Below, one piece after another: positions 822 through 21,800 of a stretch of DNA of 64,000 bases. This stretch comes from Octopus vulgaris. Taxonomy: Eukaryota. Both the position numbers and the translations under genes were made by a program. Every line of letters starts with the position of its first letter. Positions within the stretch are counted from its first letter, which is position 1. The stretch is from positions 166,408,001-166,472,000 of the forward strand of contig OX597814.1 in assembly GCA_951406725.2 (NCBI GenBank), read 5' to 3'. The notes beneath the pieces were generated by a model, which did no database searches, had not been told where the DNA came from, and saw nothing but the letters and a program-made list of their open reading frames with translations.

Positions 822-859
822 CTTTCAATGCAATGGGTGTTCAAATAATTTCTTACAAC
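822..859 (-). CDS. Exon 20 (cassette B-5, 38-nt mini-exon): [12 protein letters not shown], ends phase 2; gene continues beyond window
   Basis: tttacAG acceptor, GTAAGA donor; shares the LxxHCI pattern with exon 15. Confidence 0.85.
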
Positions 860-3800
860 CTGTAAATTAAACATATATATTCTTTTAAATGAGAAATATA
901 ATATAGGGCAAATATCTATTAGATGTCCTGCAGCTGAACAGAGAGAGGATTTAGGAATGTAACTGTGTATTTTATAAATAGTTTATGTTTCTGTAAAGGC
1001 AAATGTGTGCCCTTATATGCAAACATACATTCATGCAAAAAACTTACACATGAAAACTTTACACCCATATTCAAATACCATCACCTATTTATCTTGTTCT
1101 TGTAATTTCATTTGTAGAGTTGTGATCAATTGTATATCAAAAACACCTGAATCTATAAACATTATGGCAATTCTACTGATTTATTTATCATGCACACCTC
1201 ACAAAACTGTTGTGTTCTATACACACCATATAAATCATCACTCCACTTTGATAACCATTTGCAAACACCACTCATACTATTTCCTACGATATGAGAGTTT
1301 GTAATCCAGTACCTTATTTGGCCAAATATTTTACTTCTCTATGAATATTATATAAATATCACATCCATCAAATCAATTTGATCCATAAATAAATACTGCT
1401 TGTTGCAGTTATATTCTTATAACTATTCAAATGCTGTGATAATGATCTCACAGTTATATCAACACCATACTTGTTATAAATATTATCAAAGCAACAGCAG
1501 AATTAATTATTTGCTTCCTTCAAATTCCCTGTATGTAGGCAAGAGAACCTTTCCTTTAAATATTTCTATCAATTAAACAAAAGTTGGTGTCTGGTTATGT
1601 ATTCCAATGTTAACAAATAAAAATGAATTTCTTTGATCTACAGACCTGCTTCTTGTCACAGAGTCTACCATAATATGGTGATTTACACTGGCACCGATTT
1701 TGAATACAATTTCCCTGTCCATTGCACAGTTGCTGAAAGAAAGATATTGCATTTAATAATTTATTGAAGACTAAAGATGTGATTATTAACAAAGGATTAT
1801 GATTGTAAATCATTATAAGGAAAAATAGAAAGTGTAATAAAAATGAGGATGATAGTAATGATGGTGGAGTGGCACAAATACTAATTCCTTAATGTATGTA
1901 GCATGACCATCTGGTGATGAATCAACTCCTAAGTCCCTTACCTGAGACCACCTCAGGTTTTATACTACAGGTATTCTGTTTCAAAGTTATGAAATAGCAC
2001 CAAAAAATTCCCAGACTAGTTTGTAGCACACCAACAGATGGCAGCACATGGTTCTGTGTGCAGTGAGAGGTAGCAGTGACTTTCATAAGGCAGTGTGCCA
2101 AGTGCCATTGCTGTGTTTACTTTGCAAGTTTCTCGTTTTTTTCCTTTGTCGTTTCAGCCCAGAGCTGTGGCCATGCTGGTGTATGCTGTAGTCTGCGATT
2201 TTGTCACAGACAGGAACAAAGAGCAAACGTGAAATTTTGCAATAAACTTAGGAAATCAGCCTCAAAGACATTGTTCCTTCTCGAGCCACACCTGGCTCAT
2301 AAGGGCTGGTTTCCTGGATTCCTTGGCGTATAGGTTCCCCACCTGGATGGGACGCCAGTCCATCGCAGGTGAGCTGCAAGATGCAGGAGGAAAGACTGAG
2401 AGAAAGTTGTGGTGAAAGAGTCAGCAGAAGTTCGCCATTACCTTCTGCCAGAGCTGTGTGGAGCTCAGGTGTTTCACTCATAAACACACACATCACCTAG
2501 TCTGAGATTCGAACCTGCGATCCCTCAACCGCGAGTCCGCTGCTCTAACCACTAGTCCATGTACCCCCACACAAAGACTTTGAGCATGCTTCAGAAAGCT
2601 TACGACAATGAGGCATTGGGTTGTATGCAATGTTTCAAGTGGCACAGATGCTTCAAAAGCAGGGGGCCATCCCTGGAAGACGATGAGAGATCTGGAAGAC
2701 ATGCCACAAGCATCACCCCTGGATATGTGGTATTGTGCATTGAGAATTCATCCCACAGGGCCAGACCATCAATTGAGAGCCCTTCTGTGATATTTAGAAA
2801 CATTTGAGAGAGAACATTTGGTGAAAGCTGCTGGATCTGTGGAGTCTGAAGAATTCGATTCTTCACAATGACAAAGCACCCTGTCACCAAGCTCTCCTTA
2901 CTCATGAGTTTCTTTCCAAAAACAACGTGGTATTGCTTCTACACCTGCCCTATTTGCAAGATTTAGCATCTGCAGACTTCCATCTCTTCCCCCAAGGTGA
3001 AAATGCAGTTCAAAGGTTGCTGTTTTAATGTGAATTGCAGAAGAACCTCGACCCATTTATAGAAAACAACTTCTACAAAAGTGGCAGAAATGCAGGGACT
3101 AGTGTATTGCTGTGCAAGATGACTATCTGAAAGGGGATGATGTTAAAACTTAGATAATAAGTTATTTTTTATTAAGCATCATCTGTCCTGGAACTTTTTG
3201 ATCCCACCCTGTATCTACACCATTCAAATCTTCCATGATTCTCAAAATTCAGCAACACCACACCTGATGTTCCTTCCTTTTTTTCTTCTTTTTTTATGAC
3301 TCATTCACCGTTCACTTTCCTGTCTTTTTGCGCATTATTTTATATACTGTACATGCCCTTTTGACTACTTTTTCTGAGCAGTTGTAGTGTATATGAGTAC
3401 TGTATGCAATAAATTCATTATTATTATTATTGTTACATTATAAGGCACAAAAAGAAAATTACTCTCCCCAGACACAACAGAATATGCTTCAACACATGAA
3501 CTCAAATAAAGAATCTTGCAAACCAAATCCAAAAACGAAATATTTAAAACTTCCATCAAAATTTCATCTTAATTTATGTTTCAAATACCAGAAGGTTTAT
3601 AACAACAGTTATTTCACTAAACTCTGTATTATTTTCAACATTAATTGAATGGAAATCAATGTATTCAAAAGAAATATGGTAACAAAAAGGTTAACAGCAA
3701 TAAAAATTTCTTAGTTTCTTTCTAGCAATCTGTGCCTTCTCATAAACAACTGGAGATAGCTAAGACTGGGATTTGTGAGAAGAAATCTGAACTGATTTCT

Positions 3801-18800: not shown

Positions 18801-21800
18801 ATAGAATAAGTACTAGGCTTACAAAGAATAAGTCCTGGGGTCGATTTGCTCGACTAAAGGTGGTGCTCCAGCATGGACACAGTCAAATGACTGAAACAAG
18901 TAAAAGAGTAAAAGAGTAAATGTTGTGAAGTTATGATGTTAGGCTACAGACTACTTTGTTGTGATTTCAATTTTACTGTAATTGCCCGGACTTGTGCCTA
19001 AGAGGGAAACTTTCTAGGTGCAATCTCTTGGTCATTCATGACCAAATAGGGGTCTTCACCCTCTATATTTTAATTAATTATTAATTTATTAAAATAAGTC
19101 ATAATGTAACATAGAATCAGTGACTCTTTCAGAGTCACTGAAAGTATCACTGCTGATTGCAACATTTAGTCTTTTACATTACATGTGTAGGCTCAAGCAT
19201 GGCTGAGTGGATGCTTTGTTTTACTGTAATTGCTACTGAGCTGAGATCTGAGCTGTTCATATTGCTCTATTGCTCTACTATGCAGAGTTTCTACAGCTGG
19301 ATGCCCTTTCTAATGCCAACTACTTCGGGAGTGTAGTGGGTGCTTTTATGGGCTACCGGCACGAGGGCCAGTCAGGCGGTACTGGCAGTGGACATGAAAA
19401 AATCGTGTTTTTTTACATGTCACCTGCACACTGGCACAAGTGGCAGTAAGGCGACGCTGGTAATGATCACACTCAAATGGTGCTTTTTACGTGCCACCAG
19501 CATGAACGCCAGTTAGCTGCTCTAGCAACGATCATGCTTGGATGGTGCTCTTAGTGCTCCACTAGCACAGATGCCAGTCATTGAATTTGATTTCAACTTC
19601 ACTTGCCTCAACAGGTCTTCACAGCAGTGTCCAATGAAGGTATGCATAAGTGGGCTGGTTACACCCCTGGCATAGGCCACAAGGTTATGGTCTCACTTGG
19701 CTTGCCGGGTCTTCTCAAGTACAGAATATTTCCCAAAGTCTCAGTCACTAGTCATTGCCTCACTGAGGCCTAATGTTCGAAGGTCGTGCTTCACCACTAT
19801 ATATATATATGTGTGTGTGTGTGTGTGTGTGTGTGTATACACACACACACATATATATATATATATATATATATATATATATACACACACACATACATAT
19901 ATATTAATTGAAGCATACAATCGCCATATTTCATAATGGCTACCTCTGATGAGTACAGGGTTACATAATTGGATTGTTACCTAACACTTCATTGAATCCC
20001 TAGTGAAAAACCGATTGGTAAGATTGGATGTAATGGATATATAATACTGCACACTTTGATTAATATACCCTCTCTATTGACGGATAATACAAGTGCATTG
20101 TTTCCTGACTTATGGACTCTTAGATGACTTATACATATATATATATATATATATATATATATATATATATATATATACGTATATATATATTAGGCTATAT
20201 GTATATACATATATTCATACATGCATACACATGCACATGCATACACTTGCTTATATGTATATATATATATCATGTATATAAATTATCGGCATCAGTTTGA
20301 GACAGAAGAAATATACAAGACCACTGAAAAGACTTGAGTCACATGTCTGCTGCCTAGTGAGACAATGACTAATTACATGACCAGTGATTGCTTAATAAGA
20401 TTTAGCAAAAGCTTTTGTTAGGCCACTTTTGAAAATCAGCTCTTCTAGATCATGATTAACCCTTTCGCTACTGTATTTATTTTGAGATGTTCTGTGTTTC
20501 TTTCAATTACTTTAAATATAACAAAGAATTTAGTAAAATAATTTAGTTATCATTCAGCTAGTGTTTGGAACATAAATTGTGGCTAAGGTTTGGTGGAAGT
20601 CTTTAATTCCAAACTTATGAAAACAAGACATTTGTACTCAGAGCCAGAGCCGGTTTCAGCCGGGTTGATAACGAAAGGGTTAAATAGAATTGCTAAAGAA
20701 TGATTTTCATTTTAATGAGATGTGGGTCACTGAGAGAGGTTTGAATGAGATGTACATCTATTAGCAGTGCAGTTTTTATAGAATTCTTGATAGTAATATA
20801 TCTCTAATGGTTCTCAACCACTTTTACATATGGACCCCCTTTAATTCCTATTTTATTCAGATGCACCTTCATAGCCATTTGATGTATAATTAAATGCTAT
20901 TAGGAATTGTATAAAAACAATTAAGATATTTTGTGCATTGTGGAAGTATAACTAATTTATTGCACATAATTTTTAGCAACAAAATCTTATATGGACCCCC
21001 AAGGGTGATAGAGACCTTGGTTGAACATTACTGCTCTTGATGAAGCTGTTCAAAGGAAGTGTTTGTTGAAAACTTAACACTACATAAATATCAAAATAAT
21101 ACCAACATAGCCATAATCTTGGCCATATGCTTAAGTCCACTTTACGTTTTTGTCATGTTGCAGCTTGAACAAATGACAGCTAATCTATCTCAAATCACAA
21201 ACCACCATGGCCTAGCTCTTTATCAGTTACAATATCAAGTATTCCAGTTGATTTGATCAACTGAACAACCTGCCCACGAAATTAATGAACAAGTGGCTGA
21301 GCATTCCACAGACATGCATACCCATCATGTAGTTCTCAGAGAGATTCAGCATGACCTATTAATTGCAACAAGGTTGGCCCATTATACTACAGGTACAACT
21401 CATTTTTGCTAATTGAGTGGACAGGAGCATTGTGAAATAAATTGTCTCACTCAAAAACACAATGCACCTCTGAGAATCAAACTCATGACTATACAATCAT
21501 GAACTGAATATCCTATTCACTAAGTCATCTGCCTTCGTAAAACTACCATCATGTAAAAAAATGGGAAGGACGCATTATATAATGTAGTGCTAGATACTTT
21601 CAAAGGAGACAAGATGGTTAACAACAATGGAAATTTAAGCTGAATCCTCCACTTCATAACTACGAATATAAATTATGGGGATTTTGATGTAGGTTTTATA
21701 ATGTATATTTACAACATCTGGTGAACACTCGCAGGATCCACAGTGACACTTTCCTTGGCCAGAACAAACCAATTGGTCTCCACTGAAAAAAAAAGAGGTA

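What the first reader, a model, noticed from the sequence alone, without database searches (positions are those of the whole stretch)
822..21782. I-EGF stalk extended by tandem duplication of a five-exon cassette (70/82/110/87/38 nt)
Seen: exons 11-15 and 16-20 have identical lengths and phases and encode paralogous I-EGF2-3-4 blocks (129 aa; exon 13 vs 18 is 20/37 identical), while their introns show no evident similarity, so the duplication is old. Where the beta-tail domain should follow I-EGF4, a 38-nt linker exon restarts I-EGF2. Exon 20 ends in phase 2 like exon 15, which predicts a third cassette beyond the window. Established: normal beta integrins have 4 I-EGFs; at least 7 are present here, with the start of an 8th. 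Inference: a long rod-like Cys-rich stalk, convergent with or related to ITGBL1-type proteins.
Basis: partly seen in the sequence, partly recalled or inferred. Interest (0 to 1): 0.75.

Follow-up and report, generated by a model that had tools for sequence, protein, structure and literature searches.

The report
Headless, secreted, lengthened octopus integrin leg
This octopus gene makes a secreted integrin-beta offshoot that has lost its ligand-binding head and its membrane anchor but grown its leg from four to sixteen EGF modules, suggesting that integrin legs have a job of their own outside the adhesion receptor.

Summary
All 20 exons in the window splice to a stop-free frame identical to residues 1-517 of Octopus vulgaris CAI9716324.1 (976 aa). 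That protein has signal peptide, PSI and hybrid domains with the betaI (vWA/MIDAS) domain cleanly missing, I-EGF1, five I-EGF2-3-4 cassettes (16 I-EGFs), a beta-tail domain, then a stop: no TM, no NPxY. Contigs in 2 of 4 runs splice exon 14>15>16, so cassettes A and B share one transcript; the two-gene model in O. bimaculoides is a split. Argonauta and a cuttlefish have the same 16 modules, yet the middle cassettes are not positional orthologues (AU p<0.006). BetaI-less, TM-less relatives with 4-6 I-EGFs occur in chiton, limpet, abalone and bivalves, and arose separately in fish, insects, nematodes and a horseshoe crab. Nine modules lost the C1-C5 disulfide, so the stalk is probably hinged, not a rigid rod. 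Most molluscan heads are strongly basic. Most likely a matricellular adhesion modulator, convergent with ITGBL1, not a member of it. Function is untested; ten literature searches found no description.

The parts
45764..45818 (-). Coding exon 1 (55 nt): ATG and signal peptide, aa 1-18
   Evidence: hydrophobic helix 2-19 in model
43750..43832 (-). Exon 2 (83 nt): PSI domain, both CxxC motifs
43187..43291 (-). Exon 3 (105 nt): rest of PSI, start of hybrid
41318..41381 (-). Exon 4 (64 nt): hybrid domain, basic stretch and PQ strand
41058..41125 (-). Exon 5 (68 nt): hybrid, ends in the short loop that replaces betaI (phase 0)
39047..41057 (-). Intron 5 (2.0 kb, phase 0): where the ~240-residue betaI domain would be encoded; no betaI sequence here or anywhere in the window
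   Evidence: HMM of 146 betaI domains against all six frames: best E 6.4
38979..39046 (-). Exon 6 (68 nt): second half of hybrid
37974..38028 (-). Exon 7 (55 nt): hybrid
34226..34278 (-). Exon 8 (53 nt): hybrid
32552..32645 (-). Exon 9 (94 nt): end of hybrid, CxCxC junction to I-EGF1
25823..25956 (-). Exon 10 (134 nt): I-EGF1, then C1 and C2 of I-EGF2 (phase 0-2)
21713..21782 (-). Exon 11 (70 nt): cassette A, I-EGF2 core (8-Cys form)
18217..18298 (-). Exon 12 (82 nt): cassette A, end of I-EGF2, start of I-EGF3
16961..17070 (-). Exon 13 (110 nt): cassette A, I-EGF3 core, start of I-EGF4 without C1
16119..16205 (-). Exon 14 (87 nt): cassette A, I-EGF4 core without C5
   Evidence: spliced to exon 15 in contigs
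14694..14731 (-). Exon 15 (38 nt): linker exon supplying C2 of the next I-EGF2; same length, phase and Cys position as the last 38 nt of exon 10
11978..12047 (-). Exon 16 (70 nt): cassette B, I-EGF2 core (6-Cys form)
8159..8240 (-). Exon 17 (82 nt): cassette B
5929..6038 (-). Exon 18 (110 nt): cassette B, I-EGF3
1646..1732 (-). Exon 19 (87 nt): cassette B, I-EGF4 (6-Cys)
822..859 (-). Exon 20 (38 nt): second linker exon, opening cassette C; cassettes C-E, beta-tail and stop lie beyond position 1

Best explanation
A secreted 'leg-only' derivative of integrin beta. SHOWN (about 0.93): signal peptide, PSI, hybrid with betaI replaced by a short loop, I-EGF1, five I-EGF2-3-4 cassettes, beta-tail, stop. 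INFERRED origin (about 0.75): a duplicate integrin beta in early molluscs lost the betaI exons at a phase-0 intron and gained a stop before the TM segment; in coleoid cephalopods the leg exons were then duplicated in frame. The first duplication kept only the last 38 nt of the I-EGF1 exon as a linker exon, which left C1 of the new I-EGF2 behind, and its partner C5 was then lost; unequal crossing-over in different registers gave octopods and cuttlefish five cassettes each. INFERRED function (about 0.4): without betaI it cannot bind ligand by MIDAS or dock on an alpha propeller, and without a tail it cannot signal. It most likely acts outside the cell as a matricellular adhesion modulator: the basic PSI/hybrid head docks on polyanions (proteoglycan glycans or acidic matrix) and the hinged chain presents five copies of the leg surface that in a normal integrin packs against the alpha leg and hybrid domain, damping or spacing nearby integrins as ITGBL1 does in vertebrates.
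For: Window exons 1-20 give 517 residues with 0 differences from P0001. No betaI in window or protein; about 35 residues span the site that takes about 266 in canonical betas. One contiguous match to engineered betaI-deleted beta2 leg fragments, PDB 5e6w and 2p26. Model of the O. bimaculoides head: pLDDT 92.5, Z 18.5, rmsd 2.6 A over 215 residues to 5e6v. Beta-tail HMM matches 886-975 at E 7e-19 and the protein ends before the TM positions. Joints 14>15 and 15>16 in single 4,141- and 3,976-nt contigs of two studies. Same architecture in Argonauta and in 7 of 10 members of the cuttlefish cluster. Cys are lost in pairs; 130 Cys in the mature chain. Ten molluscan betaI-less proteins form one clade, 98/95. 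Head net charge +12 to +27 in 11 of 14 molluscan betaI-less rows, against at most +5 in 101 canonical betas and -6 to 0 in 15 non-molluscan betaI-less rows. ITGBL1 is secreted and inhibits integrin activity (PMC8921176 abstract; PMC7563769 passages).
Against: No functional, expression-site or binding data were found. The head is only weakly basic in 3 of 14 molluscan rows (Solemya +4, one chiton gene +5/+6). The molluscan clade is not recovered from leg columns alone (0 of 200 bootstrap trees, unresolved), so it may lean on shared composition in the head. The 3' end lies outside the window and rests on protein records; only exons 14-16 were laid against contigs, and the runs are labelled RNA by guess. 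The full-length model is too poor to show shape (pLDDT 53.7, pTM 0.23). Linker-exon homology to exon 10 rests on length, phase and one Cys; nucleotide identity is only 12-13 of 38. ITGBL1's effect on adhesion is itself disputed.
Confidence: 0.45

Rival explanations
1. Structural spacer or molecular ruler: head and beta-tail bind two matrix or cell-surface partners and the 16 modules only set their distance.
For: Exactly five cassettes in octopods and cuttlefish although B, C and D are not positional orthologues (AU p 0.0014, 0.0056, 0.0051); the end cassettes and the head are better conserved across lineages than the middle ones.
Against: Loss of C1-C5 and long linkers predict hinges, a poor ruler; relatives work with 4-6 modules; homogenisation of a five-cassette ancestor explains the count without selection on length.
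Confidence: 0.2
2. Humoral or mucosal innate-immune protein: the cationic head binds microbial polyanions and the EGF chain bridges to haemocytes as an opsonin.
For: Secreted, disulfide-rich, basic head; molluscan integrins act in immunity (PMC7390872 passages).
Against: Conserved and apparently single-copy in the three cephalopods, unlike diversified recognition families (inference); not named in the main text of an octopus mucus proteome (its supplement could not be read).
Confidence: 0.2
3. A membrane-bound or alpha-paired isoform is the working form, made by an alternative last exon or pairing through the legs.
Against: Both RefSeq isoforms of O. sinensis give the same 976-aa protein; none of the full-length cephalopod records or molluscan relatives has a TM segment; betaI carries the main alpha-beta contact (PMC12383024 passages).
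Confidence: 0.08
4. Extracellular redox protein: the PSI CxxC pair acts as a thiol isomerase on integrins or matrix, the leg being a carrier.
For: Both PSI CxxC motifs are invariant; such activity is reported for the beta3 PSI domain.
Against: The same Cys are structural in all betas and are not paired within the motifs in crystal structures; it does not explain the stalk expansion.
Confidence: 0.05
5. Two neighbouring genes, or mutually exclusive cassettes giving four I-EGFs.
For: O. bimaculoides RefSeq has two proteins, 379 and 604 aa, broken exactly around the 38-nt exon; symmetric phases would allow skipping; 2 of 4 runs showed no cover.
Against: Direct 14>15>16 joints at GT-AG in two studies; both split models end or begin in intron read-through; full 983-codon frames on contigs under 4 kb.
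Confidence: 0.02

Closest known systems
ITGBL1 / TIED (vertebrate integrin beta-like 1)
   Same: Secreted, signal peptide, no TM, no cytoplasmic tail, no ligand-binding head, more than four integrin-type EGF repeats (PMC7563769 passages).
   Different: ITGBL1 is described as ten repeats only; this protein keeps PSI, hybrid and beta-tail, has 16 modules in a 2-3-4 period, and its expansion is cephalopod-specific among the molluscs examined.
Canonical integrin beta subunits (beta-PS/pat-3/beta1 type)
   Same: PSI, hybrid, I-EGF1-4 and beta-tail with their Cys patterns and fold.
   Different: No betaI/MIDAS, no TM, no NPxY tail; 16 instead of 4 I-EGFs; C1-C5 lost in 9 modules; basic head.
Engineered beta2 leg fragments (PDB 1yuk, 2p26, 2p28, 5e6v, 5e6w)
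   Same: PSI/hybrid/I-EGF without betaI; best contiguous sequence and structure match.
   Different: Those are laboratory constructs; this is a natural, expressed, conserved gene with a long leg.
Zebrafish truncated beta1 paralogues (PMC1538996)
   Same: Separate genes, no TM or tail, proposed secreted regulators; the authors noted unexpectedly high conservation of PSI, hybrid and EGF-1.
   Different: They keep the A (betaI) domain and lack the beta-tail; four EGFs.
Stalk-expanded integrin betas of unicellular obazoans and amoebozoans
   Same: More than four cysteine-rich stalk repeats (bioRxiv 2020.04.29.069435 passages).
   Different: Those keep vWA/MIDAS and mostly the NPxY tail; different repeat type and lineage.
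Tenascin-X (RefSeq name of the O. sinensis orthologue)
   Same: Secreted, long EGF array.
   Different: No FN3 or fibrinogen domain detected; the EGFs are integrin-type. The name is a mis-annotation.

Membership tests
Integrin beta subunit | PSI domain | tested here: met
   All PSI Cys and Trp invariant against canonical betas; fold match. Pfam PSI_integrin does not hit the octopus protein but hits 2 of 5 non-cephalopod, non-abalone molluscan relatives scanned.
Integrin beta subunit | Hybrid domain | tested here: met
   Cys pairs conserved; model superposes on beta2/beta3/beta6 hybrid, Z 18-21.
Integrin beta subunit | betaI (vWA) domain with MIDAS | tested here: not met
   No PF00362 hit; custom HMM blank on protein and on six frames of the window, while controls score 256-371 bits.
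Integrin beta subunit | Four I-EGF modules | tested here: not met
   16 modules; 166 of 209 betaI-bearing proteins show the plain three 8-Cys modules after I-EGF1.
Integrin beta subunit | Beta-tail domain | tested here: met
   Custom HMM E 7e-19 at 886-975; alignment to beta3 488-687. Pfam PF07965 itself misses it.
Integrin beta subunit | TM helix and NPxY cytoplasmic tail | tested here: not met
   Protein records end 1-6 residues after the last beta-tail Cys; no hydrophobic segment. DNA for this end is outside the window.
Integrin beta subunit | Heterodimer with an alpha subunit | not tested
   No complex job was sent; predicted absent from loss of betaI.
ITGBL1/TIED | Signal peptide, no TM or tail | tested here: met
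ITGBL1/TIED | Ten I-EGF repeats as the only domains | tested here: not met
   16 repeats plus PSI, hybrid and beta-tail versus the description in PMC7563769.
ITGBL1/TIED | Orthology by tree | tested here: inconclusive
   No vertebrate ITGBL1 sequence was listed; Atlas scores to ITGBL1 clusters were 0.76, below the lead threshold. Indirect: relatives with 4 I-EGFs place the expansion inside molluscs.
ITGBL1/TIED | Binds integrin beta and lowers its activity | not testable with these tools
   Needs a binding or cell assay.
Tenascin | FN3 repeats and C-terminal fibrinogen globe | tested here: not met
   Pfam scan at E up to 1 lists only EGF-type families and DUF7949.
Truncated beta1 paralogues of zebrafish | A domain kept, beta-tail lost | tested here: not met
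   The reverse holds here (paper passages).

The most novel reading that the evidence does not exclude
BetaI-less 'headless integrin legs' are an unrecognised class of secreted or GPI-type proteins that animals have made from integrin beta at least five separate times (molluscs, teleosts, insects, nematodes, a horseshoe crab), because the PSI/hybrid/I-EGF leg has an alpha-independent binding function; in coleoid cephalopods this leg was lengthened to exactly 16 modules twice independently, under selection for a fixed reach of roughly 35-40 nm (recalled module size, not measured).
Probability: 0.25. Interest if true: 0.82.

Novelty: new variant of a known kind. Interest (0 to 1): 0.64.

Why it matters
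Integrin legs are usually seen as passive levers. A conserved, expressed gene that keeps only the leg, and repeated origins of that design in other animals, imply the leg binds something by itself. It supplies natural counterparts of the betaI-deleted constructs used in crystallography, a plausible intermediate on the way to ITGBL1-like proteins, and a series (4, 6, 16 modules) for testing what stalk length and the C1-C5 disulfide do. Surveys that require PF00362 plus a TM segment (as in the oyster study) miss these genes, and databases call this one 'pat-3' or 'tenascin-X', or split it.

Tried and rejected
No whole genome was held, so the DNA beyond position 1 was not read; protein records stood in. 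A first motif scan of ORFs was too noisy; two scripts had off-by-one exon ends, corrected. Run search: no holder on record as RNA. Two of four runs laid (X1, X3, one study) had no cover on the exons; that is no evidence on expression. The full-length fold was low confidence and its Foldseek hits add only family identity. Three word-index searches, the representative search and two Atlas searches gave no ITGBL1 sequence, so the requested module tree against ITGBL1 was not built. No record named as squid or nautilus was listed; absence is not shown. The I-EGF3+4-only tree was mostly unresolved. The leg-only tree did not recover the molluscan clade; one row (Lytechinus) was skipped there, after a failed script. 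One origin for all betaI-less proteins was rejected (AU p 2e-8). In the charge count 2 of 103 canonical rows with 140 or fewer aligned residues were left out. RGD/KGD motifs are not conserved among the cephalopods. Accession searches in papers found only three mentions of C. elegans C05D9.3, uninformative on architecture. A brain-atlas supplement search was blank (3 files searched, 1 not); the mucus-proteome supplement was unreadable and may bear on localisation. Three look-ups of earlier scan findings were empty. No complex prediction was sent, since no specific partner or interface is claimed.
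Full report
Observation. Each has AG/GT ends; lengths run 70/82/110/87/38 twice with identical phases, and the 387-nt unit keeps the frame. The two cassettes share 57 of 128 residues and 238 of 387 nt, 10 of 18 four-fold sites, and no convincing colinear intron similarity: the blastn hits are mostly inverted or off-diagonal, like those in one of three control pairs. The duplication is old.

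The whole gene. Ten further exons upstream were found by splice-site scan and by eye. All 20 exons give a stop-free 517-residue frame with 0 differences from Octopus vulgaris CAI9716324.1 (P0001, 976 aa), 3 from O. sinensis and 22 from the 379-residue O. bimaculoides record. No genome was held, so the part beyond position 1 comes from these records. P0001 has I-EGF1 plus 15 more modules, five cassettes, then a beta-tail domain (HMM of 130 canonical tails plus TM: match 886-975, E 7e-19, ending before the TM positions) and a stop. There is no TM segment or NPxY motif.

The head lacks betaI. Aligned with canonical betas, PSI and hybrid Cys are all present but about 240 residues are missing; roughly 35 residues span a site that takes about 266 in canonical proteins. 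The gap falls at the phase-0 intron 5. An HMM from 146 betaI domains finds nothing in six frames of the window (best E 6.4) while scoring controls at 256-371 bits. The best contiguous matches among solved structures are betaI-deleted beta2 constructs (5e6w residues 9-313 to query 28-334). A model of the O. bimaculoides head and first cassette has pLDDT 92.5 (132 sequences) and superposes on 5e6v with Z 18.5, rmsd 2.6 A over 215 residues. The full-length model is uninformative on shape (pLDDT 53.7).

One transcript. Laying four runs on 11900-16209 showed, in 2 of 4 (two studies), single contigs of 4,141 and 3,976 nt that join exon 14 to 15 and 15 to 16 at GT-AG introns; the other two runs had no exon cover. 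The runs are RNA by guess, but the contigs are spliced. They hold 1,197 and 1,320 nt upstream of exon 14, against 1,041 nt of coding sequence, leaving no room for betaI unless both are cut short, and enough downstream for the remaining 1,803 nt. I saw only these joints, not the rest of the contigs. Seven of ten members of a cluster that includes Acanthosepion pharaonis are 983-aa frames on contigs under 4 kb, which I read as spliced transcripts with the same architecture.

How the stalk grew. After I-EGF1 the Cys pattern is 8,8,6 then (6,8,6) four times in Octopus, Argonauta and cuttlefish: C1 and C5, which pair in I-EGFs (PMC12383024 passages), are lost together in every I-EGF4 and every restarted I-EGF2. 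The linker exon matches the last 38 nt of exon 10 in length, phase and Cys position and begins just after C1 (nucleotide identity only 12-13 of 38). I infer that the first duplication left C1 behind and C5 was then lost. From recalled knowledge the tight C8-x-C1 link stiffens I-EGF junctions, so the chain should be rigid I-EGF2-3 pairs joined by hinges rather than a rod. Octopus and Argonauta cassettes mostly pair by position (46-61% non-Cys identity). With cuttlefish only A groups firmly; holding B, C or D together across the three species is rejected (AU p 0.0014, 0.0056, 0.0051). Octopod B-D resemble A in I-EGF4 and cuttlefish B-D resemble E in I-EGF3-4 (short modules, weak tree). Either both lineages expanded a two-cassette ancestor to five, or a five-cassette ancestor was homogenised differently; these data cannot separate the two.

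The family. A profile search of 1.84 billion representatives (best 150 of 1,620 listed) and name look-ups for 10 of them show betaI-less, TM-less proteins in chiton (two genes), limpet, Solemya, Mytilus and probably Plakobranchus, besides abalone, mostly with four I-EGFs (abalone six). Ten molluscan proteins form a clade at 98/95 in a 52-row tree without betaI columns, but not in a leg-only tree, so single origin in molluscs is likely, not proven. Other betaI-less proteins sit with fish beta1, with insect beta-PS, in a nematode group and alone (Tachypleus); one origin for all 24 is rejected (p 2e-8). Some of these may be faulty gene models; I checked transcripts only for the octopus gene. The head's net charge is +12 to +27 in 11 of 14 molluscan rows, at most +5 in 101 canonical betas and -6 to 0 in 15 other betaI-less rows.

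How it most likely works. Established: betaI carries the metal sites and the main contact with the alpha propeller, so this protein should neither bind ligand in the integrin way nor form a receptor. Inferred: it is secreted, docks by its basic head on polyanions and presents repeated leg surfaces that modulate nearby integrins, as secreted ITGBL1 lowers integrin activity (PMC8921176 abstract; PMC7563769 passages, which also report opposite adhesion results). I put this at about 0.4 for function, with spacer (0.2) and immune opsonin (0.2) as main rivals. Nothing here tests function.

Comparison and novelty. It fails the integrin beta test on betaI, TM and tail, and the ITGBL1 test on architecture; it works like the latter at most. 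Zebrafish truncated beta1 genes keep the A domain (PMC1538996 passages); unicellular stalk expansions keep vWA (bioRxiv 2020.04.29.069435 passages). Ten searches of the open library showed no description of this gene or of natural betaI-less betas; I read listings and abstract starts for most hits, and subscription papers are not covered. The oyster survey's criteria would exclude such genes (PMC7390872 passages). Verdict: real, apparently undescribed, a new variant of the secreted integrin-stalk kind; interest 0.64.

Noticed in passing
window 9710-10377 and 23657-24048: A 61-bp minisatellite (10.9 copies) in intron 16 and a related 193-bp tandem in intron 10; the same core recurs in other introns.
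   Followed up: no
window 17257-17784 (+) and about 22400-22980: Mariner-type remnant with a Mos1 HTH hit in intron 12; a similar remnant in intron 10 seen by eye.
   Followed up: partly
window 29054-29653 and 36843-37223 (-): Non-LTR retrotransposon fragments with weak zf-RVT hits below the curated cut-off.
   Followed up: partly
window 63041-63397 (-): Open stretch that looks by eye like a GIY-YIG endonuclease remnant (recalled motif); no Pfam hit. No other gene was recognised between 46000 and 64000.
   Followed up: partly
P0004 and P0005: O. bimaculoides annotation splits this gene in two by missing the 38-nt exon; O. sinensis RefSeq names it tenascin-X.
   Followed up: yes
P0001, P0034; P0004, P0005, P0025, P0101: The headless gene and canonical octopus betas list the same longest-contig length, so they may share a chromosome.
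   Followed up: no
P0008, P0298, P0011, P0137: A second kind of secreted leg-repeat protein in clams and a shrimp, without PSI/hybrid head, whose repeat includes I-EGF1 or the beta-tail; each groups with its own lineage's canonical beta.
   Followed up: partly
P0245, P0224, P0254, P0267, P0198: A nematode-containing group of betaI-less proteins without beta-tail that end in a low-complexity spacer and hydrophobic tip, like a GPI signal.
   Followed up: no
P0173 cluster (Mytilus); P0009, P0012 (Haliotis): Independent leg extensions: mussels repeat I-EGF4 plus beta-tail; abalones have six I-EGFs with a fused I-EGF4/2 module.
   Followed up: partly
P0138: An unnamed record close to P0007 lacks several whole I-EGF4 segments at the octopus exon boundaries, hinting at the same exon structure in cuttlefish and at missed or skipped phase 0-0 exons.
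   Followed up: no
P0143: A 2,761-aa unnamed record joining integrin alpha-like, beta-like and FN3-like parts; probably a fused gene model.
   Followed up: no
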